Shown here: one piece after another, positions 1,135 to 41,593 of the stretch
How the letters are laid out: each line of letters starts with the position of its first letter
How positions within the stretch are numbered: position 1 is the first letter of the stretch
The notes under the pieces: generated by a model
Database searches by the model: none
The model's input: only the letters and a program-made list of their open reading frames with translations
Told to the model about the DNA's origin: nothing
Position numbers and translations under genes: made by a program
From: a virus
Length of the DNA stretch: 60,235 nt
Direction: 5' to 3' (one strand)
UHGV virus genome: UHGV-1364457

Positions 1135-1646
1135 TGCCCGTTGAAGCCTACGAATACCGCATCCAAGAAATCCGTCGCAGGATCAAGGAACTTGATTCCG
1201 TCATGACGGACGATGTGAACAAGTTTGAGAAGATATTACAGGAGCAAGTTCGGCTTACCATTGAGGGGGAAGCCCTCCTCATCGTCAAGAAAGTAATCTC
1301 AGAAGTCTTTGTCCGCATCGTCATGCGAACGCCTGTCGATACGGGGCGGGCGAGGGCTTCATGGCAATTCGCCGTCGGAACGGCACCATCGGGGGTTGCT
1401 CCGGACAAAGAGTATCCCGAACTCAAAGATAAAGAAATTTCAGAAACTCAGGTGCGGGCGGCTGTCGCTTCTGCTCTTGAGGAAATATCGGTAGCTCCTG
1501 CATCTGTTTGGTTTATCTCAAACAATCTTGAGTACATCGAAGCGCTAGAGGCGGGATGGTCAAAGAAGCAGGCCCCTGCGGGCATGGTTTCGTTGACTCT
1601 CAGAGAAATGACCCGGCAACTTGAACTGGAACTTGGAAAAGCATGA
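1134..1646 (+). CDS. HK97 gp10-family head-tail joining / tail completion protein
   Basis: Motif TPVDTGRARASWQ matches the DTGxLRxSW signature of the HK97 gp10 family. Coupled to neighbours on both sides. Confidence 0.65.
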   Translation: MPVEAYEYRIQEIRRRIKELDSVMTDDVNKFEKILQEQVRLTIEGEALLIVKKVISEVFVRIVMRTPVDTGRARASWQFAVGTAPSGVAPDKEYPELKDKEISETQVRAAVASALEEISVAPASVWFISNNLEYIEALEAGWSKKQAPAGMVSLTLREMTRQLELELGKA

Positions 1647-2107
1647 TTCGGCTCGACCTCATACGGAAAGCTTTTGATAATGCCATGCTTGAGCAGATGA
1701 AGAAGCTTTTGCCGGGCACGCCCACTCAGTTCGTTTGGTTGGGGCTTAACGTGTCATCAACGCCTGACTTGTCCAAGCTGCATATCATAACCGGGTTCAA
1801 TCCGGGGGAATCCTCAACACAAGAACTTGGTGGCCCCGGTTCTCTCGCTGTCCGCGACGGTGTGTACATCATCACGCAATCCCTACCGCAGGGAATGAAT
1901 GTTGATGAAGCGTGGAGAATTGCCAGCGGCCTAGAGAGCTATTTTTGGCAATTCATAAGGGAAACCCCCTTTTACACTGGCGAGTGTCGTGTATGGCTTG
2001 ATGTGCCCTCTACCGCCAACAGGGGAACGGACCCCGATCAGGGACGTTACCTCATTTCTACAACCATTCCGTGGTATACCGCCTACTCGGGCGGTGCAAA
2101 GGAGTAA
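1643..2107 (+). CDS. Putative tail terminator / tail component protein
   Basis: ATGA overlap with the upstream gene. Position between the gp10-like gene and the major tail gene. Confidence 0.4.
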   Translation: MIRLDLIRKAFDNAMLEQMKKLLPGTPTQFVWLGLNVSSTPDLSKLHIITGFNPGESSTQELGGPGSLAVRDGVYIITQSLPQGMNVDEAWRIASGLESYFWQFIRETPFYTGECRVWLDVPSTANRGTDPDQGRYLISTTIPWYTAYSGGAKE

Positions 2108-11772: not shown

Positions 11773-12723
11773 CTAAGCCCTCCCATTCCCGTTCAACTGC
11801 CTGACGATACCAAGCAACGAGTATCCGGGATTGCTGTACTGCTCAAGCTGTCGTCCCGGCGCGGTGAGTGCCTTCCTGACGTCATGGTACACGCTTTGGT
11901 GCAGGTAGCCGCGCAAGGTGTTCTCAGACAGCATATCCGGGACAAGGTACAGCCGGATGTCCGCCCGGCGTTCGAGGGCTTCGGATACCTTCCAACTTAA
12001 GGTGAACACGCTGTGATGGAGGTTCGACAGAATGCGGTCTACTTCCTCATGCGCCGCCTGCACCTCTTCGATGAACTCCAAGAAAGGCTTTTCGTCTATC
12101 ACCGGATGCGCTGCACACGGGGCGGGGAGGGCGGCTTGAGGCAATGCCTCTATCTTCCCCGCATTGACCTGCATGGAGAGCAGGAAATCCCGCGCATCAT
12201 CCATGCGAGAGCAGGGGAGTTGCTTATACTCGGCAATATGGAAGTGGCGATTAAAGCGTGTCCAAATTTCCTTGTACGCCCGACGCTGTACGGCCTTGGG
12301 CACCATCCCGGCCTTGGAGTCCACAATCAGCTTGAGTTCGGCGCGCTGTTCCGGGGAGATCGGGGCGTCATTGAGCGTTACGGGGTGGGCAATGGGCACC
12401 CTGTCGCCGTACTGTTCGATGACATCCAGTACCCAACGGCGGAACGCCTTAGCGACGGGGGTCCGGGCGAACATGGCAAGAAGGTGGCAGCCGCGAAGGG
12501 AGAAGATACGAACCCGGACCGTCAAATTGACGGTGTCGAGGTTTTCAACAACTTGCGTCATGTTTTCGGTGAATTCGTCTGCGTTTCTGTCATACAGGCG
12601 GCTCAGAGTATCTTCTCTGGCATACCCTAAAGCGCGGGCGATTTCAGATGACTTGAACCACGGCTGGTTGTCTCGCGTGACAGGGGAGAAAGTGAAATCA
12701 TTGAAGCAGAGAGAAGCGGTCAT
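11773..12723 (-). CDS. Bro-N domain protein (antirepressor-like)
   Basis: FNDFTFSPVTRDNQPWFKSSEIARALGY is Bro-N like. 316 aa. Confidence 0.6.
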   Translation of the reverse strand: MTASLCFNDFTFSPVTRDNQPWFKSSEIARALGYAREDTLSRLYDRNADEFTENMTQVVENLDTVNLTVRVRIFSLRGCHLLAMFARTPVAKAFRRWVLDVIEQYGDRVPIAHPVTLNDAPISPEQRAELKLIVDSKAGMVPKAVQRRAYKEIWTRFNRHFHIAEYKQLPCSRMDDARDFLLSMQVNAGKIEALPQAALPAPCAAHPVIDEKPFLEFIEEVQAAHEEVDRILSNLHHSVFTLSWKVSEALERRADIRLYLVPDMLSENTLRGYLHQSVYHDVRKALTAPGRQLEQYSNPGYSLLGIVRQLNGNGRA

Positions 12724-13068
12724 AGTGACCTCCTGTTAGGTTGTTCAATTCCCTTTCCCTAAATAGAAAAAGAGCCGGGAGCTTGAACACCGCCTAACAG
12801 TGCGGCCCATACACCTTTCCCTTGCGGGTCTTGTATAATGGATGGACTCCCGGCCCAAATACAGGCTGGATAATAGACCACTCCCAAGGTGAAAAACACT
12901 CTTGACAGGGCGTAAAAAATCCGCATCTGCGGGCGCGGTATCCGCTGTTAGAACGGCTGTTCAAGGCCGTGGGTAGACAACGCCACAGAAACGGGGGAAT
13001 GTCAAGGCAACGGTGATAGGCCCCAAAAGAGGTTGAAAAATACGCTAGCATCAGATATAAAAAGTTTA

Positions 13069-35374: not shown

Positions 35375-35605
35375 CTACCAAGCCCTGCACAGCGTCGCCG
35401 GGAAATCGATTCCGGGGCGCACGCCGAAGTATTCCGGCGTCCATTCGGCATCGTCATCATCCCAAGGTTCAGCCTGATCCTCTTCTTCGCCGGGAAAATC
35501 GCTGATGTACTGGCGGGCATCTTCGAGGCAGTCGAGATGTTCGATTTCGATTGCTCCGGTTGATGTCGCGGTCAGAACCGTGCAGGGCGTAGAAAAAGCG
35601 GTCAT
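35375..35605 (-). CDS. Small acidic protein
   Basis: AAGGAG RBS before ATG 35605. Confidence 0.4.
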   Translation of the reverse strand: MTAFSTPCTVLTATSTGAIEIEHLDCLEDARQYISDFPGEEEDQAEPWDDDDAEWTPEYFGVRPGIDFPATLCRAW

Positions 35606-35982
35606 GGCTGTTCTCCTTTGTGGGGGGTTCGTTCCCCGTCTCGTTGAAAACAGAATGAACTTTAATAGTTCTTTTGTCAATCACATTTTGAACTATTTTC
35701 AAACTTTTTTTGTCCACAAAAAAAGCCCGTTTACCGGGCCATGCTGAAAAAAGTTTGCTCAGGGCATGAAAAAAGGCGGCTGCGCGGGGGCAGTCGCCGG
35801 GGTAGGGCAGAGGTATGGGCAAAAGAAAAGGCCAAGAACGAATCCTTGGCCTCATAGCAAGCCCATATGGGCCAAATAGACACTACAGCGGATTGCAATC
35901 TCTCTTCTGTAGCGGCCTGAAGGACGAACCCGCAGGACTTAGGCCACACCATACTGGTGGGCACCGACAGCCTTAATATAGG

Positions 35983-36396
35983 CTAGATCTTTTCAAAGTC
36001 AATGGAGGTTATACCGATAGCCGCCGCTACACAGCGGCGAACTTCGCGCATTTCGGGCTCGCTTAACCTAAGCTTTACATATAATCTATTGCCGAATTTG
36101 TCTTTTCCTTTTGAAGGCATAAAAAGACGCTGAAATCCCACGGCTGAAATCATATCGCCTTTCAGCCAGTGGACTTTAGAGTCATAAGGTGCGGGCAGGG
36201 TCTTAGGGGTATTGATCAGGCAGTGCCAAGGCTGTTGTTCTTCCGGGTCGGTGGTGCTTAATGGTGCAACAAGACACAAACGTGGAGAAACCGAAGATAG
36301 TATGATAACTGGTCTTTTCTTAGTCATTTCAGGTTCTATTCCGCTAAATTCGCATAGAAGAATGGAACCAATTTCAGGTTGAAATTTTATAGCCAT
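35983..36396 (-). CDS. MazF/PemK-family toxin-like protein
   Basis: GSILLCEFSGIEPEMTKKRPVIILSS...LCLVAPLSTTD...YDSKVHWLKGDMISAVGFQRL match the MazF/PemK fold signatures. Lower GC than the backbone. Confidence 0.65.
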   Translation of the reverse strand: MAIKFQPEIGSILLCEFSGIEPEMTKKRPVIILSSVSPRLCLVAPLSTTDPEEQQPWHCLINTPKTLPAPYDSKVHWLKGDMISAVGFQRLFMPSKGKDKFGNRLYVKLRLSEPEMREVRRCVAAAIGITSIDFEKI

Positions 36397-36463
36397 ATCC
36401 TACTTCCCCGCCGCCTTGACCGCCTTCAACGTCTCACGACATTTCTTCGCCGAATCCATACCG

Positions 36464-37201
36464 TCACCAAGTAAGCCCCAATCGTTCAAGGTGTTCTTCG
36501 CGTGTTTCATATTTAGCAATTTTTGTTTCTATTGTTGGTATATTTTCTAATTCGTCACTTACAAATTGATTACTCGTTTTGTAAAGCCAAGAACTATCTT
36601 TTCTCCATGAAGATAAAGCATCAAGTATTTGTTCAGGTTCATATTCAAAAGCATGACATAGGCAAAGAAAATCACTCAAACTAAGTTTATGCGTACCATC
36701 AAAAATATTTTTTGTTTTTTCTATGTTATTTTGAACTGATGGAAAGGCTCTACTTGCTATATCATCTATAGAAAGCATACGTTTTTCTTTTAAAATATTG
36801 AACAATGAAACTGAACTATCATTGTATTCTTGATAAATACTTGGCAAGTCATATACAGGAAATTTGTGTTCACATTTTTTTTGCGTTGGATGAATATTTA
36901 CTAATCTTCCAGCAGTATCGCGTATTTCAAACCTTTCGTTACCAAGAACTTCAATAGCTTTTATATACTTAGCTTTGTTTTGGTAGAATGCCTGTTTTGT
37001 CCCTGCGACTTCAATATACATATCTCTTTCTTCATCGTAAAAGTCTGGGCGATATGTATATTCACCAAAGTCAATTGGCTTAGGTTGGCTTATCCATTTG
37101 TCATGTTTAAAAAAGTTTTCAGCAAAAAAACGTTCATTATCATTTTTTATTTGGGCTATTTTTTCTTCTCTTGTCATTTTATCCCACCTTAGTTTCGTCA
37201 A
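36464..37201 (-). CDS. Low-GC protein: putative PD-(D/E)xK-like N-terminal domain fused to C-terminal XRE-type HTH
   Basis: YRPDFYDEERDMYIEVAGTK is nuclease-core like (tentative). C-terminus LSIDDIASRAFPSVQNNIEKTKNIFDGTHKLSLSDFLCLCHAFEYEP is an XRE HTH. Confidence 0.5.
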   Translation of the reverse strand: MTKLRWDKMTREEKIAQIKNDNERFFAENFFKHDKWISQPKPIDFGEYTYRPDFYDEERDMYIEVAGTKQAFYQNKAKYIKAIEVLGNERFEIRDTAGRLVNIHPTQKKCEHKFPVYDLPSIYQEYNDSSVSLFNILKEKRMLSIDDIASRAFPSVQNNIEKTKNIFDGTHKLSLSDFLCLCHAFEYEPEQILDALSSWRKDSSWLYKTSNQFVSDELENIPTIETKIAKYETREEHLERLGLTW

Positions 37202-37469
37202 TGCGATTTAGAACCACACCAAGAGCTTCTAAAGGGCTTATTCCCAATGCTCTAGCCATTTTGACGAATTCTCCGAGAGACAGAGCGCGAGTTTTTCCAT
37301 TAGCTTGAGGCTTGCGAAGTCTTTGAATAATCATCCGTGCATTCGGAACGCCGGGGAAAACTTCATTCGCCAATGCCTCAACAGAAATTTTGGGCTTAAC
37401 CGAAAGTCGCTTTTCATCAAAAAGGCGCATGGCCTCTTGTTCAATCCTCACTTGCAAGTCCTCGTTCAT
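37179..37469 (-). CDS. XRE-family HTH transcriptional regulator
   Basis: AGGAGG RBS 4 nt before ATG 37469. TRALSLGEFVKMARALGISPLEALGVVL. Overlaps the downstream gene. Confidence 0.55.
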   Translation of the reverse strand: MNEDLQVRIEQEAMRLFDEKRLSVKPKISVEALANEVFPGVPNARMIIQRLRKPQANGKTRALSLGEFVKMARALGISPLEALGVVLNRIDETKVG

Positions 37470-39021
37470 ATGACCTCCTAATATGGAGATCACAAGTTAA
37501 CATCTTTCTGAGTACAAAAAAGTACTTCAAAAAAGCTCTTGACTTATGATCTACCATAGTTCATTTATGCAAGCAAGAGATTTGCAACAGCTATCCCCAT
37601 CCACAGGGCACGCCCAACCGCCCCGCGAAGAAGCGAACAGGAGGGAGTAGGCCACCGCTTAAGGGGCACCAGCATCTGGACGGCTCGATACGGTGGCGGA
37701 TGTTGGGAGGATTATCGGGAACCACGACCCCATGCCCGAAGCGCAGAGACGAGACAGGAGAAGACGCGGGGAAGGCGGCGCATCGGCCGGAAAGCTCCTG
37801 ACCTGTGGCATGATGCAGTGACCGCAGGGGCCATGAAGCGACGGCGGCTCCATACCGGAACCACTACGCGGAAAGGTCATATCTCCCCACAATGGGTAAG
37901 GGGAGACTTTGGCCTTTCGCTCAGGCTCACCACCCGGAAGACCTGAAAGGCTGTAGATACGGGGAAAGCTCAAATGCCTTTGGTTTTTGCCTCTTTGCCT
38001 TTCCTCTTCGGCATATGCCTTCACCTCTTCGCCTACCGAGAGCCAGGGTCAGGGCGGGAACCGCCCTCTTGCCGGAATGGGGAGACGCGGGAAAGATGAA
38101 AAAGGGGCACGGAATCTCAAAAGCCGTTTTCAATTCTTTTTGAGATTCCGGGAAGTTTGAAAAACAAAGCTGAAACAGGACATTCTACCCAACTGTTAAG
38201 TTTTTCTAAACAGTTCGTTCTTTGACAATCAGCCCCGACGATCCGCCCAGTCCGTTCCGGCCCACGTATCCCTCCACAGGGGCGCGTCCCGCAGCGGTGG
38301 TATGGCGGATAGGGAAAACTTCATGGGCGGGCGGCATCGAACCACCCGCCCACATGCGGTTACTGCCCGGAGGAGAGGCACCGGGGCTTCACTGGTTACC
38401 TTTTCAACGCGGCTATGACCGATGCCTAGTTCAATACACCGGGAATCACCACGTCCTAGACCAGCGGCTAGTGTCGAAATCTATCACCGGATGTTTTCAC
38501 ACCCTTACCGCCAACGTCTTGCGCTGGCGGTCGGATAGGAAACCTATTGTACTATTCTGATTCAGCGCACTCTTCGGAAGGGTTCTTTTCACCGGATTTG
38601 TTCACATTACCGAGCATCATGGCTGAAACTGCGGCAAGCTGTGCGTTCATGTCGGTTTCACGCCTTACAAGAGGCTTCAAGATCACTTCTGCGCTAAGTC
38701 CAAGACGACAGGCTGCCAAGGCAATCTGGCGCGAGAGCAGTTTGATTTCTTCATCTTCGATCTGGTTATCCATTGTATTTCCATTATATTGTATATTGTT
38801 ACGCTGCTATGGTCGGTCAACAGCTACCTTGCGTCCTTTCGGAGTACGCCATTCCACATGACGCCTTTTCTCGCACCATACCCCCGAAGGGCACCTTGTC
38901 CTTTGCCTTCTGAATCGGAACGCCGTTCCGTGTTGATGCAGGGAAATGAAGTTGGCTGACATCTCACCATCTTGATGGCTAATGGTTATCCCCGCATCAC
39001 AGGGAACGGCGATATTTGAAC

Positions 39022-39096
39022 GTGGCAGCCGGGGACGGGATCGAACCGTCGATCACAGGGTCAAAGCCTGTTGCCGTAACCGCTTGGCTACCCGGC
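39022..39096 (-). tRNA. tRNA-Gln (anticodon TTG)
   Basis: Acceptor AGCCGGG/CCCGGCT. Anticodon loop CTTTGAC. T-arm GACGG-TTCGATC-CCGTC. CCA encoded. Confidence 0.6.
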
Positions 39097-39307
39097 TGTG
39101 TTTGCGGCTTCATAGCTGGCCCGGAGACGTACTCCGGGCCTTGGCGCGAACTATCTTAATTATATATGATTATTACTACATACGCTGGCCTTTTCAGCGC
39201 GTAGCGGGATCATATTGGCAATTAAGAGAGCTTCGCCTAGCAAAAGGGACATAGGAACCTCTCTTGCTGGCCTTGTCGGGCCAGCTATAAAGCCACAAAC
39301 GCTATTC

Positions 39308-39396
39308 ACTTTTCAATCTGGCGGACGGGGTGGGATTCGAACCCACGGATGCTTTCACATCGGCGGTTTTCAAGACCGCTGCCTTCATCCTCTCGG
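39308..39396 (-). tRNA. tRNA-Ser (anticodon TGA), long variable arm
   Basis: 89 nt. Anticodon loop CTTGAAA. T-arm GTGGG-TTCGAAT-CCCAC. CCA encoded. Confidence 0.6.
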
Positions 39397-39398
39397 CA

Positions 39399-39499
39399 AC
39401 CCGTCCCTTTGGTTCCGGGTAAGGGACTCGAACCCTTAAGGAGTATGGGTAACTACCCACTCTCTCCACATTTTGAATGTGGTGCGTCTTCCTATGTCC
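39399..39499 (-). tRNA. Atypical ~101-nt type-II tRNA-like, anticodon CAA (Leu?)
   Basis: D-arm TGGCGGACATAGGAAGACGC is Leu-like. Anticodon loop TTCAAAA. About 28-nt variable region with a 6-bp stem. One acceptor mismatch (G7-A66). Confidence 0.45.
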
Positions 39500-39502
39500 G
39501 CC

Positions 39503-39579
39503 ACCCCGGAATTTGGTGCCACCCGTGGGAGTCGAACCCACACTAGACGGGGCTTAAACCCGTTGCCTCTGCCGATTGC
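39503..39579 (-). tRNA. Atypical 77-nt type-I tRNA-like with anticodon TAA (Leu-decoding anticodon on a short scaffold)
   Basis: Acceptor and T-arm pair well. Anticodon stem ACGGG/CCCGT, loop TTTAAGC. D-stem pairing is weak. Confidence 0.4.
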
Positions 39580-39592
39580 GCTAGAGTGGCTT

Positions 39593-39668
39593 GTGGTGGG
39601 AATGTCGGGATTTGAACCCGAAACCCGCAGATTATGAGTCTGACGCTCTGCCAATTGAGCTACATTCC
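39593..39668 (-). tRNA. tRNA-Met (anticodon CAT)
   Basis: D-arm TAGCTCAATTGGCAGAGCG. Loop CTCATAA. T-arm TCGGG-TTCAAAT-CCCGA. CCA encoded. Confidence 0.6.
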
Positions 39669-40178
39669 CTATTGGTCTACGTCCTGTTGCTGTTCCTGAA
39701 CCTCACCAGTCTCACGGGCCTCTTTCGAGCTTTCCGGGCGGCCTCTTGCTCCGCCCACCGTATCGCTACGGCCTTCATGCCGCCCAAACTGGCTTCCTCC
39801 GTCCGGGGCTTTCTGGCTACTTTCCGGCTAGGTGCCGGGCGTGTTCGCCTTCCCCGTTCGTCGTGAGAACAGTGTGCGATACTTCGAACAGTATGTCAAG
39901 AAAATCGTTCGATACATCGAATGATAAGATCAAAAAAAATCCCTACTCGGTGGAGTAGGGAAATATTTTCAACATCCTATAGAGTCCAAGTAAGCAAATG
40001 GGTCTAATTCTTGGGGAACCTCACCGTAACAGAATAAGGCTTTCCGTAATAAGCGGTAACAATGCGTTAAAACAAAATCTTTTTTCTCCCCAACAAGTAG
40101 TGATTCAGATACTCTTTTGAAAATTTTTTTATAAATTTTAGCTATTTTCCGTTCAACATCCTTTTTGGCACGCGCAAT

Positions 40179-40222
<44 letters not shown>

Positions 40223-40376
40223 GAGGGGATAGGAGAAGTATAGAGCGTTTCTACAGAAGAAAAAGAGCGAAGTTTAGACATGGGGATGCTCCTTTGAGTG
40301 AGTTTAATTATTAATCATGTGATACATATTATACGGCTTGCTGATCTATTAGATAAGATGTTATACTCTTTATATC

Positions 40377-40724
40377 TTGATGATAATAATGGATGAACGC
40401 ACAACCAATAAAAAATCCCGCATGGAGCGGGAAGGACACAATATGGAATCCAGCAATGAAGATCGTATTATTTCTTTGTTAGAAGATATTAAGAATATTT
40501 TACTCTCTCAGAGAGATTTGTACTTATACTATAACACGCAAGAATATCATCATGCTATTTTCGGAAAAGAACAAGATAGATCATATGTATTGCATACAAT
40601 GTACCCGGAACCTTTCGGTATATTGACACAACGCGGTAAAATTCCTGCCCCTTTATTTATGCAACCTTTTTTTGAAAACGCACTAGAAAATATAACTAAA
40701 TTTTACAATAAGGATAAAGAATAA
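40377..40724 (+). CDS. Low-GC hypothetical protein
   Basis: 115 aa, about 33% GC. Confidence 0.4.
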   Translation: MMIIMDERTTNKKSRMEREGHNMESSNEDRIISLLEDIKNILLSQRDLYLYYNTQEYHHAIFGKEQDRSYVLHTMYPEPFGILTQRGKIPAPLFMQPFFENALENITKFYNKDKE

Positions 40725-41146
40725 TATTGTACGTATTAAATCCACAAAACCATGATCGTTTTATTTTTATTTCTATTTCATATTTACATTTCCCATTTGA
40801 TAATAAACAATTAAATTTATATTTTTGATTTTTATATAAAACTTTTTGAATATTTTTTACATTTCCAATTTTTATGTACTCTTTAAATTGTCCAGTATTT
40901 GGGTCTATTTCTTCTGAGTTTTCGATAATATAGAATCCCTTAATAGATAAGGCTTTACATATAGTTATGGGTTTTGACGAAGTATTATATAGAGTTTACT
41001 TATCTTCAAGAATCAAACCTATATTCTGATTTGCTTTGAATGTAAGGTATACTGTAGCACAAGCTGTTACTATTCCAGCAATATCAGCAATCGTTATACT
41101 ATAAGACATAACATCATTCCCCGCCCTGTGCGGTTTTTTTTAACAA

Positions 41147-41593
41147 CTATCCATCATGTTTATTTTTATTCTTTGATACATTGAGTAATGACTCGTACTG
41201 TTCTATACGGAGTTTTTTTTCTTCTAAAAGTTCTTTCAGATAATCATTTTGTTCTTTTATTAGGTCGTATCGTTCTTTGAGCGATTTTAATTCTGAATCG
41301 CATTCTGATGGAACTTCTCCCGGCAAAAAAACTTTTACCCCTAACTTATCAAGCCAAGAACAGAAAGTATCCGCCTTCGATATATTGATAAAACGTAACA
41401 CACCGCTGAGTGTGGAATCTCCTACACCCAAAAGCCTTGCTGTTGCATTCTGTCCTCCGTAAAGAGGAATAATATCTGTTTCTATCCATCTTATAATACG
41501 TTTATATGTATTACTTTTCACTTCTTGAGGCACTTTCGACGACTTAAAAAGCGCAGCTTTTTGGGGGTCTCTTCTTTCTTTTGTGTAGGTCAT
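41147..41593 (-). CDS. CI-like repressor candidate (HTH plus C-terminal coiled coil)
   Basis: GAGGAGG RBS before ATG 41593. GQNATARLLGVGDSTLSGVL HTH. Divergent from a Cro-like gene. Confidence 0.5.
   Translation of the reverse strand: MTYTKERRDPQKAALFKSSKVPQEVKSNTYKRIIRWIETDIIPLYGGQNATARLLGVGDSTLSGVLRFINISKADTFCSWLDKLGVKVFLPGEVPSECDSELKSLKERYDLIKEQNDYLKELLEEKKLRIEQYESLLNVSKNKNKHDG

What the first reader, a model, noticed from the sequence alone, without database searches (positions are those of the whole stretch)
35983..37469. Lower-GC three-gene block: XRE HTH, nuclease-like protein fused to an HTH, and a MazF/PemK-like toxin with no canonical small antitoxin
The MazF/PemK-like gene (137 aa, convincing fold motifs) is preceded by a 245-aa low-GC protein rather than a MazE-type antitoxin. 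The upstream gap can only encode a 19-aa peptide. That 245-aa protein pairs a putative PD-(D/E)xK-like N-terminal half with an XRE HTH C-terminus. It overlaps an upstream XRE regulator. The block is compositionally foreign and sits between the recombination genes and the immunity region. It looks like a non-canonical toxin-antitoxin or abortive-infection module. The HTH-fused protein may act as antitoxin and regulator, or the block may be a two-effector system.
Basis: partly seen in the sequence, partly recalled or inferred. Interest (0 to 1): 0.7.

Follow-up and report, generated by a model that had tools for sequence, protein, structure and literature searches.

The report
Orphan MazF toxin with partner RNA
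The three genes are real but are two unrelated phage modules spliced together, and the steady partner of the MazF-like toxin is not a neighbouring protein but a previously uncatalogued structured small RNA gene just downstream, which may be its antidote.

Summary
All three minus-strand genes exist: a 96-aa XRE-like protein (g1), a 237-aa protein (g2, not 245 aa) and a 137-aa PemK/MazF protein. A structure model shows g2 as a PD-(D/E)xK-fold N-domain plus an XRE HTH. The 19-codon ORF is real. It is the scar of a g1-family gene that sits intact, 3 nt upstream of nearly identical MazF genes, in ten sister contigs.

The block is not one system. The g1-g2 pair occurs without MazF in nine loci. Two of them carry a Panacea toxin-antitoxin pair in the MazF slot. 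MazF occurs without g2 in about 90 loci.

What travels with this MazF subfamily is a three-hairpin RNA that starts 3-68 nt after the stop codon. It has its own conserved sigma-70 promoter (TTGAC-N16/17-TATAnT) and a terminator. It is found in 53 of 83 testable loci and in five named plasmids. Twenty of its 24 base pairs show compensatory changes. It has no Rfam match. It is absent from 16 MazF-less sister loci.

My best reading is a self-contained toxin plus RNA-antitoxin cassette that works like type III ToxIN but is built differently, dropped into a variable cargo slot behind g1-g2. The antitoxin role is inferred, not shown.

The parts
37179..37469 (-). g1: 96-aa small XRE-like protein. It is the first gene of the leftward early operon and belongs to a Desulfovibrionaceae-phage family of 91-120-aa proteins.
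   Evidence: ATG with an AGGAGG RBS. Weak Pfam HTH_3 hit, E 0.12. The family profile finds 149 clusters with no Pfam domain, some named Desulfovibrio sp.. It occupies the same position in sister phages with or without a downstream toxin.
36464..37177 (-). g2: 237-aa protein of GC 0.315. Residues 1 to about 100 form a PD-(D/E)xK-fold N-domain with invariant E15, D45 and E56 and nearly invariant Q62 and K70. Residues about 108-190 form an XRE-type HTH. The tail is disordered.
36400..36459 (-). 19-codon ORF (MDSAKKCRETLKAVKAAGK). It is a scar of the 3' end of a g1-family gene that is intact upstream of MazF in sister phages.
   Evidence: It matches the C-termini ...AKECREALEAVKAAGK and ...VGREALKAVKAAGK of the 93-100-aa genes lying 3 nt upstream of 87-100 % identical MazF genes. 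The same scar follows g2 in L114, where Panacea replaces MazF.
35983..36396 (-). 137-aa PemK/MazF-family protein of an orphan subfamily that one source labels YifN-like.
   Evidence: Pfam hit above cutoff. PHROG hit. 45 homologues, with the conserved EPEMTKKRPV, PLSTT and WxKxDM motifs. Aligns to MazF structures in the PDB.
35975..36002 (-). Sigma-70-type promoter of the RNA gene: -35 TTGACT (36002-35997), 16-nt spacer, -10 TATATT (35980-35975). The -35 lies inside the last MazF codons.
   Evidence: It is the best promoter-like site in 35600-37800, matching 10 of 12 positions. TTGAC-N16/17-TATAnT is conserved across 47 distinct loci.
35821..35968 (-). Structured small RNA gene of about 150 nt. 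It has hairpins P2 (35962-35943), P3 (35938-35915) and P4 (35914-35881, with the loop GAUUGCAA). The single-stranded motif CUAAGUCC lies at 35942-35935. A variable hairpin lies at 35872-35861. An intrinsic terminator lies at 35853-35821.
   Evidence: Conserved with covariation. Covariance model hits. Terminator. Fold z-score -2.71. No Rfam family.
35769..36471 (.). Cassette present here but absent from g1-g2 sister phages of the L002 type. It holds the scar, MazF, the RNA and its terminator.
   Evidence: blastn breakpoints are as follows. L002-type homology runs 38104 to 36472 and resumes at 35780. L008-type homology runs 36435 to 35769. Fine mapping of the left junction.

Best explanation
The block is a mosaic of two independent modules.

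Module A is g1 plus g2. g1 is a small XRE-like early regulator. g2 is an HTH-tethered PD-(D/E)xK-fold nuclease. Together they head the leftward early operon of a group of Desulfovibrionaceae (Bilophila/Desulfovibrio-type) temperate phages. The position just behind them is a slot where cargo cassettes are exchanged.

Module B, the cargo here, is a two-part cassette. It holds an orphan MazF/PemK-family endoribonuclease gene, followed immediately by a separately transcribed RNA. That RNA has its own promoter and terminator and is about 150 nt long and structured.

I infer that the RNA keeps the toxin in check. Most likely it binds MazF as a pseudo-substrate or as a processed ligand. If the RNA is lost, for example when transcription is shut off during phage infection or when the element is lost, the nuclease is released. 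This is the logic of type III ToxIN. The architecture differs: the RNA is single-copy, non-repetitive and downstream, and the toxin comes from the MazF family.

The 19-codon ORF is a recombination scar.

Shown: the mosaic, the separability of the modules, the RNA's structure, promoter and terminator, and its linkage to MazF. Inferred: RNase activity, toxicity and neutralisation by the RNA.
For: Mosaic and separability:
- blastn breakpoints.
- g1-g2 without MazF in L002-L006.
- g2 at 100 % identity followed by a Panacea pair in L114/L115. L114 keeps both the scar upstream and part of the RNA plus its terminator downstream, so it derives from a window-like ancestor by cassette replacement.
- L007 carries two Panacea pairs in the same slot.
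- g1-family genes head early operons with no adjacent toxin.

No conserved protein partner:
- I clustered all flanking ORFs of 91 distinct MazF loci. The commonest neighbour is a cI/LexA-type repressor, in only 16 loci. The small XRE gene appears in only 10, all from one phage clade.
- Chromosomal relatives L010-L014 have no upstream same-strand gene.

The RNA:
- 8 compensatory pairs among 7 close sequences.
- In 48 distinct sequences, 20 of 24 pairs carry compensatory changes and 92.6 % of cells are paired, against 69 % in shuffles. No shuffle in 500 reached the observed values, and slid controls gave 31-45 %.
- Frequent G-U pairs fix the strand.
- Conserved TTGAC-N16/17-TATAnT.
- A hit 3-68 nt after the stop codon in 53 of 83 loci that have at least 150 nt downstream.
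- Found unannotated after annotated PemK/MazF genes on Polaromonas, Aquitalea, Fluviibacter and Sphingomonas plasmids, and weakly on an Enterobacter plasmid.
- Starting from the RNA side, 15 of 22 testable viral-contig matches have a MazF-like ORF upstream.
- No significant hit in 16 MazF-less sister loci, 94 kb in all.
- The RNA stays intact where MazF carries an internal deletion, in L014, L016, L021 and L068.

In about 16 loci MazF sits just behind the prophage repressor gene, where it could be co-expressed with the repressor in lysogens.
Against: - No experiment or expression data supports any step.
- Seven RNA matches in viral contigs lack a MazF-like ORF. Several follow small membrane proteins or an integrase. 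The RNA may therefore have a function independent of MazF, or these may be orphaned copies.
- 30 of the 83 loci, mostly below 40 % identity, gave no hit. This could reflect model reach or real absence.
- In this phage clade a small XRE gene abuts MazF with a 3-nt gap, which is the classic type II layout, so a protein antitoxin cannot be excluded.
- Here MazF lies in an early lytic operon that is probably repressed in the lysogen, so it might need no antidote.
- The covariation counts use model-fitted alignments, which lean towards the modelled structure.
Confidence: 0.5

Rival explanations
1. This is a type II system with a substitute antitoxin. In this phage clade the small XRE protein is the MazF antitoxin: an N-terminal HTH with a C-terminal ...LKAVKAAGK tail that binds the toxin. 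In the window its paralogues g1 or the g2 C-domain take over. Alternatively the 19-aa tail peptide does so, translated by coupling to the g2 stop (TGAcggtATG). The RNA then does something else.
For: - Ten loci with 87-100 % identical MazF carry a 93-100-aa XRE-like gene 3 nt upstream.
- The N-terminal parts of those genes vary widely while the last 10-12 codons stay constant.
- The g2 C-domain and g1 belong to the same family.
- The scar keeps an ATG and an open frame both here and in L114.
Against: - The same family heads early operons with no toxin nearby. It also precedes g2, a 275-aa protein or complete Panacea pairs.
- MazF relatives outside this clade lack it entirely.
- The scar persists in L114, where MazF is gone, as expected of a neutral remnant.
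- g1 is only 15-20 % identical to the MazF-adjacent alleles.
- No structural or binding test was possible.
Confidence: 0.2
2. This is an un-neutralised lytic-phase effector. MazF is made only from the early-left operon after induction or infection. It cleaves host or competitor RNA as a takeover or exclusion function and needs no antidote. The downstream RNA is an independent phage regulatory sRNA, or a stabiliser and terminator of the mRNA 3' end.
For: - MazF lies in the early operon behind g1-g2 and ahead of the recombination genes.
- PHROG 1936, 'MazF-like growth inhibitor', is filed under host takeover.
- The RNA occurs after non-MazF genes in seven viral contigs.
Against: - In many relatives MazF sits on plasmids or chromosomes, or directly behind the prophage repressor gene, a position that suggests expression in lysogens. 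An unchecked RNase would be costly in all of these settings.
- The RNA has its own conserved promoter rather than being a mere 3' UTR.
- The RNA co-travels with MazF across distant taxa and is absent from MazF-less sister phages.
Confidence: 0.17
3. This is a type I-like antisense system. The RNA base-pairs with the MazF mRNA and blocks its translation or triggers its decay.
For: The adjacent, separately transcribed sRNA gene resembles tisB/istR-1 or zor/orz layouts (my own knowledge of those systems).
Against: - The RNA is on the same strand as MazF and does not overlap it.
- The longest complementary runs between each RNA and its own MazF translation-start region are no better than with non-cognate ones (17.15 against 17.75, p 0.95). 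For the whole mRNA the scores are 23.4 against 22.7, p 0.06.
- The conserved RNA loops have no conserved complement in the mRNA.
Confidence: 0.05
4. One reading: g1, g2 and MazF form one three-gene system, with g2 as the antitoxin/regulator or as a second effector.
For: The genes are tightly packed on one strand. The g2 C-domain is an XRE HTH of the family found next to MazF elsewhere.
Against: The trio is found nowhere else. g2 pairs with other cargo or with none. MazF is never next to g2 in about 90 other loci. Clear recombination junctions and the scar separate the two parts.
Confidence: 0.05

Closest known systems
Type III toxin-antitoxin systems (ToxIN, CptIN, TenpIN)
   Same: Both have a predicted endoribonuclease toxin and an adjacent non-coding RNA as the only conserved partner. 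Both are carried on phages, plasmids and prophages. The proposed logic is the same: decay of the RNA frees the nuclease.
   Different: The known antitoxins are tandem repeats upstream of the toxin, separated from it by a terminator and processed by the toxin. Here the RNA is a single non-repetitive three-hairpin molecule downstream of the toxin, with its own sigma-70 promoter. The toxin matches Pfam PemK_toxin. Its relation to the ToxN/AbiQ, CptN and TenpN families was not tested. No binding or processing has been shown.
Canonical type II MazEF / PemIK / Kis-Kid
   Same: The toxin domain is the same (PF02452), and the Arg and Ser/Thr positions aligned to E. coli MazF are conserved.
   Different: There is no MazE/PemI/Kis-type gene. 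The upstream gene in sister phages is an XRE-like protein that also occurs without any toxin. In this window it is reduced to 19 codons. Across the subfamily no protein neighbour is conserved.
E. coli YifN (PemK-superfamily protein, pseudogene in K-12)
   Same: One source labels distant homologues 'YifN (PemK superfamily)'. yifN also stands alone without an annotated antitoxin.
   Different: K-12 yifN is disrupted by stop codons. Only a sub-threshold, truncated RNA-like match lies downstream of it (6.8 bits, E 0.23).
Panacea (PanA) toxin-antitoxin cassettes
   Same: They occupy exactly the same slot behind g1-g2 in L114, L115 and L007. This shows that the site exchanges toxin-antitoxin cargo.
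   Different: They are complete protein-protein pairs and are unrelated in sequence to MazF or to the RNA.
Small PD-(D/E)xK nucleases (Bax1 nuclease domain, TnsA, VRR-NUC, Hjc, Vsr) and XRE/controller proteins, for g2
   Different: The N-domain has no Pfam model. The lysine is not at the classical (D/E)xK position. No methyltransferase partner is consistently present. The function is unknown.

Membership tests
PemK/MazF toxin family (Pfam PF02452) | Domain match above the curated threshold | tested here: met
   38.5 bits against a cutoff of 23.1, covering residues 10-125. All close homologues carry PF02452.
PemK/MazF toxin family (Pfam PF02452) | Conserved catalytic Arg and Thr/Ser (E. coli MazF R29 and T52, numbering from my own knowledge) | tested here: met
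   R28 is invariant and S47 is invariant in PLSTT across 22 sequences. The profile aligns KKRPVvvLS to HRPAVVLS and VPLsT to VPCTT of MazF chains 3nfc and 5ck9.
PemK/MazF toxin family (Pfam PF02452) | Sequence-specific endoribonuclease activity and toxicity | not testable with these tools
   Requires expression and cleavage assays.
Type II toxin-antitoxin module | Adjacent, co-transcribed protein antitoxin gene that co-occurs with the toxin | tested here: not met
   Only a 19-codon scar lies upstream here. No flanking protein family is shared by more than 16 of 91 loci.
Type III toxin-antitoxin module (ToxIN-like) | RNA antitoxin made of tandem direct repeats upstream of the toxin, with a terminator between the two | tested here: not met
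   The RNA is single-copy and lies downstream, with its own promoter. The 67-nt upstream gap holds only the scar.
Type III toxin-antitoxin module (ToxIN-like) | The RNA binds and inhibits the toxin protein and is processed by it | not testable with these tools
   Only genomic linkage has been shown.
Type I toxin-antitoxin module | Antisense complementarity between the RNA and the toxin mRNA | tested here: not met
   Cognate pairs are no better than non-cognate pairs (p 0.95 for the start region, p 0.06 for the whole mRNA).
Any Rfam 15 RNA family | Covariance-model match | tested here: not met
   Only chance-level matches (E 0.22 and 0.53) in 35600-36500. Nothing at the gathering threshold in this region.
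PD-(D/E)xK nuclease superfamily (g2 N-domain) | Restriction-endonuclease-like alpha-beta-beta-beta-alpha-beta core | tested here: met
PD-(D/E)xK nuclease superfamily (g2 N-domain) | Catalytic D...(D/E)xK signature | tested here: inconclusive
   E15 and E56 are invariant and D45 is nearly invariant across 43 sequences. The residue two positions after E56 is not Lys. K/R61, Q62 and K70 are conserved nearby.
XRE/Cro-CI HTH (g2 C-domain and g1) | Five-helix HTH fold or a Pfam HTH_3 match | tested here: met
Known anti-phage defence systems (PADLOC-DB 2.0) | Match to a defence-system protein model | tested here: not met
   Nothing for g1 or MazF. g2 gave one weak 30-residue hit to a PD-DEXK model, E 0.0033.

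The most novel reading that the evidence does not exclude
The MazF-like gene and its downstream RNA define a new class of RNA-antidote toxin systems. The toxin comes from the MazF/PemK family. It is held in check by a single-copy, non-repetitive, three-hairpin RNA transcribed from its own strong promoter downstream of the toxin gene. The cassette is spread on prophages, phage-like elements, plasmids and chromosomes of Desulfovibrionaceae and of Alpha-, Beta- and Gammaproteobacteria. It often sits just behind the prophage repressor gene and acts there as an abortive-infection or exclusion module.
Probability: 0.4. Interest if true: 0.85.

Novelty: new variant of a known kind. Interest (0 to 1): 0.7.

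Why it matters
'Orphan' MazF/PemK toxins are routinely annotated as type II toxins with a missing antitoxin. All four plasmid loci where the RNA was clearly found label the toxin gene that way and leave the RNA region unannotated. If the RNA is the antidote, three things follow.
- A sizeable toxin subfamily changes class.
- RNA-antitoxin systems extend beyond the three repeat-based type III families.
- A compact toxin/RNA pair becomes available for phage-defence and biotechnology studies.

The result also gives a clean example of a cargo slot in Desulfovibrionaceae gut phages where toxin cassettes (MazF plus RNA, or Panacea pairs) are exchanged, with scars that record the order of events. The claim can be tested directly with a few plasmid constructs.

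Tried and rejected
- Megablast of 35500-38000 against phage genomes and E. coli genomes found no match.
- tblastn of g2 against phages found no match.
- Pfam, NCBIfam and PHROGs gave nothing meaningful for g1 or g2. PADLOC gave nothing usable.
- Rfam gave no family for the RNA.
- Sequence search of the g2 family against the PDB gave only marginal HipB-type HTH hits.
- I considered tRNA-like, attC-like and retron-type readings of the RNA. ARAGORN finds no tRNA there. The element has three hairpins with conserved loops, not one long imperfect hairpin. No reverse transcriptase gene appeared among the called or clustered genes next to the MazF loci.
- I considered an R-M reading of g1-g2 (controller protein plus nuclease). 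A methyltransferase lies nearby only in L006.
- ViennaRNA duplexfold in the sandbox gave implausible energies, with shuffles averaging -35 kcal/mol. I discarded and replaced them with a contiguous-complementarity test. One search timed out.
- Six literature searches found no description of a PemK/MazF-linked downstream sRNA. The one lead, the HnrS preprint, concerns a different sRNA that pairs with canonical mazF. The library is incomplete, so prior description cannot be excluded.
- Downstream of E. coli K-12 yifN there is only a sub-threshold RNA-like match.
Full report
THE OBSERVATION

The three minus-strand ORFs are present.

- g1 starts at the ATG at 37469, behind AGGAGG, and encodes 96 aa.
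- g2 was read as 245 aa from a TTG. The ATG at 37177 follows AAGGTGGG, lies 1 nt after the g1 stop, and is where all six database homologues start. So g2 is 237 aa and does not overlap g1.
- The third gene (35983-36396, 137 aa) passes the Pfam PemK_toxin threshold, 38.5 bits against 23.1. It also matches phrog_15698 at 1.8e-19.
- In a 22-sequence family alignment the motifs EPEMTKKRPV, PLSTT and WxKxDM are conserved. The family profile aligns the Arg and the Ser/Thr to the RPAVVLS and VPCTT segments of E. coli MazF structures. The gene therefore looks intact and under selection.
- GC content is 0.454 for g1, 0.315 for g2 and 0.442 for MazF, against 0.53-0.56 in the flanks.
- The 67-nt gap between g2 and MazF contains only the 19-codon ORF at 36400-36459.

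WHAT g2 IS

Only six full-length relatives exist among 5.8 billion proteins.

- A profile of the N-domain finds 387 representative clusters in 1.8 billion proteins. None carries a Pfam model for this domain. Several are fused to HTH or zinc-ribbon domains.
- E15 and E56 are invariant and D45 is nearly invariant. The classical Lys position is not kept.

Activity is unknown.

THE BLOCK IS A MOSAIC

blastn against related contigs shows two kinds of homology.

- L002-type phages match from 38104 down to 36472, which covers the upstream region, g1 and g2. The match resumes at 35780.
- L008-type phages match from 36435 down to 35769, which covers MazF and what follows it.

The g1-g2 pair occurs without MazF in L002-L006. 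In L007 it is followed by two Panacea pairs. In L114 and L115 a g2 gene that is 100 % identical is followed by a Panacea pair.

Conversely, ten contigs carry MazF at 87-100 % identity with an intact 93-100-aa gene 3 nt upstream.

The 19-codon ORF (…AKKCRETLKAVKAAGK) is the C-terminal remnant of such a gene. Compare …AKECREALEAVKAAGK in L058 and …VGREALKAVKAAGK in L059.

L114 keeps this scar upstream of its Panacea pair. It also keeps part of the downstream RNA and the terminator region. L114 therefore descends from a window-like arrangement by replacement of the MazF cassette.

THE SMALL XRE FAMILY

g1, the MazF-adjacent 93-100-aa proteins and the g2 C-domain are homologous. This is clearest in P0006, whose C-terminus reads …NLCEAVGLSWVDVGREALKAVK.

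A family profile finds 149 clusters of 91-120 aa with no Pfam domain, and some are named Desulfovibrio.

In other phages this gene heads the early operon and is followed by quite different things.
- A 275-aa protein.
- Small genes after a 200-nt gap, then a PDDEXK_1 exonuclease gene, with a faint RecT match beyond it in one locus, and no toxin.

The family therefore behaves as a resident early regulator with a variable cargo slot behind it, not as a dedicated MazF antitoxin.

THE CONSTANT PARTNER OF MazF IS AN RNA

DNA conservation continues past the MazF stop codon even in distant chromosomal relatives, and there it is higher than in the coding region.

Structure:
- The conserved stretch forms three hairpins. 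Eight pairs show compensatory changes among seven close sequences.
- Covariance models built from it find the element 3-68 nt after the stop codon in 53 of 83 MazF-like loci that have at least 150 nt of downstream sequence.
- In 48 distinct sequences, 20 of 24 pairs carry compensatory changes and 92.6 % of cells are paired, against 69 % in shuffles. No shuffle in 500 reached the observed values, and slid controls gave 31-45 %.
- Many G-U pairs fix the strand as that of MazF.

Transcription signals:
- Immediately upstream lies a conserved sigma-70 promoter, TTGAC(A)-N16/17-TATAnT.
- In the window this is TTGACT-16-TATATT at 36002-35975, the best promoter-like site in the region. An intrinsic terminator follows at 35853-35821.
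- The -35 lies inside the last MazF codons. This probably explains the conserved C-terminal Leu/Ile-Asp of the protein.

Other properties:
- The conserved single-stranded motifs are (C/U)UAAGUCC and the P4 loop GAUnnCAA.
- The window RNA folds with a z-score of -2.71.
- Rfam 15 has no matching family.

INDEPENDENT CHECKS OF THE LINKAGE

- On five named plasmids the element lies, unannotated, right after genes annotated 'type II toxin-antitoxin system PemK/MazF family toxin'. Scores are 69 bits in Polaromonas, 56 in Aquitalea, 28 in Fluviibacter, 19 in Sphingomonas and a weak 12 in Enterobacter.
- From the RNA side, an exact-pattern scan of viral contigs gave 23 matches. Of the 22 testable, 15 have a MazF-like ORF within 700 nt upstream.
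- As a negative control, 16 MazF-less sister loci (94 kb) gave no significant hit.
- The RNA stays intact where MazF has an internal deletion, in L014, L016, L021 and L068.
- I clustered all flanking ORFs of 91 distinct loci. No protein partner is shared widely. The commonest, a cI/LexA-type repressor directly upstream, occurs in 16 loci.

HOW IT MOST LIKELY WORKS

Inference: the MazF-like RNase and the separately transcribed RNA form a self-contained cassette, and the RNA restrains the toxin.

An antisense mechanism is unlikely. Each RNA is no more complementary to its own MazF mRNA than to foreign ones. That leaves direct RNA-protein binding, as in type III ToxIN, as the most economical model.

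The architecture fails the defining features of type III systems. There are no repeats, the RNA is downstream, and it has its own promoter. I therefore say it 'works like' type III and do not file it as a member.

Where the cassette follows the prophage repressor gene, it could be expressed in lysogens. That position would suit an exclusion or abortive-infection role. In this window it sits in the early lytic operon, so only the RNA is likely to be made in the lysogen.

CAVEATS AND RIVALS

- Nothing here is experimental.
- Seven RNA matches lack MazF. Some follow small membrane proteins and one follows an integrase.
- Thirty distant loci gave no hit.
- The 3-nt XRE-MazF juxtaposition in this clade keeps a type II reading alive, with g1, the g2 C-domain or the 19-aa tail as a substitute antitoxin.
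- MazF may simply be an un-neutralised lytic effector.
- The available literature did not describe this RNA, but the library is incomplete.

VERDICT

- The three-gene-system interpretation is not supported.
- The absence of a canonical antitoxin is real.
- The best current explanation is a conserved downstream RNA gene that is absent from Rfam and unannotated in the four plasmid records where it was clearly found. That would make this a new variant of RNA-controlled toxin systems.

Noticed in passing
window 12765-12855 (-): Rfam gathering-level match to sRNA-Xcc1 (RF02221, 60.8 bits), next to a 316-aa ORF at 11773-12723 (-), inside the structural-gene half of the phage.
   Followed up: no
window 39023-39669 (-): Cluster of five tRNA genes (Gln, Ser, Leu, Met and an odd 101-nt 'Phe' with anticodon aaa) between the early-left operon and a very low-GC region at about 40000-41400.
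   Followed up: no
window 37676-37949: GC-rich (about 0.6) stretch upstream of g1 with no convincing ORF. It is conserved at 72-80 % in sister phages L006-L009 and at about 84 % in the L002 type, whatever cargo follows. It may hold a regulatory region or another RNA.
   Followed up: no
L114 1571-2665; L115; L007 5686-7339: The slot behind g1-g2 carries SocA_Panacea antitoxin-toxin pairs in other contigs. L114 keeps both the 19-codon scar and half of the MazF-linked RNA, which records a cassette replacement.
   Followed up: yes
L142 (Sphingomonas parapaucimobilis plasmid NZ_CP155755.1) 376-3158: A MazF-like gene with the downstream RNA (18.9 bits) is wedged between dnaN and recF, 9 nt after dnaN. 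This is a housekeeping replication locus on a 201-kb replicon.
   Followed up: partly
L138 (E. coli K-12 NC_000913.3) 1405-1961 (-): yifN is a stop-riddled PemK-like pseudogene. The ppiC-yifN spacer gives a sub-threshold, truncated match to the RNA model (6.8 bits, E 0.23) with a -10-like GATAAT, CUAAGU and a terminator hairpin.
   Followed up: partly
L117/L137, L122, L124, L118, L129, L134 (viral contigs): Full-motif copies of the RNA occur without a MazF-like ORF. They lie after 106-125-aa proteins with hydrophobic C-terminal segments, or after an integrase-like ORF. These may be alternative partners or orphaned RNAs.
   Followed up: partly
L012 4612-4890, L014 4591-4869, L016 7207-7485: In chromosomal Desulfovibrionaceae loci a conserved 92-aa protein (MPTLFDPLAYLA...) with no Pfam match follows the RNA terminator. 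It is absent from the phage loci.
   Followed up: no
L006 220-3289: A C5 DNA methyltransferase gene lies just upstream of the g1-like and g2-like genes in one contig only. This hints that some g1-g2 pairs could be parts of an R-M-like unit.
   Followed up: no
L144-L146 2784-4326: In other Desulfovibrio phages the small XRE gene is followed, 1 nt later, by an uncharacterised 275-aa protein and then by a weak Cas2-like 93-aa ORF.
   Followed up: no
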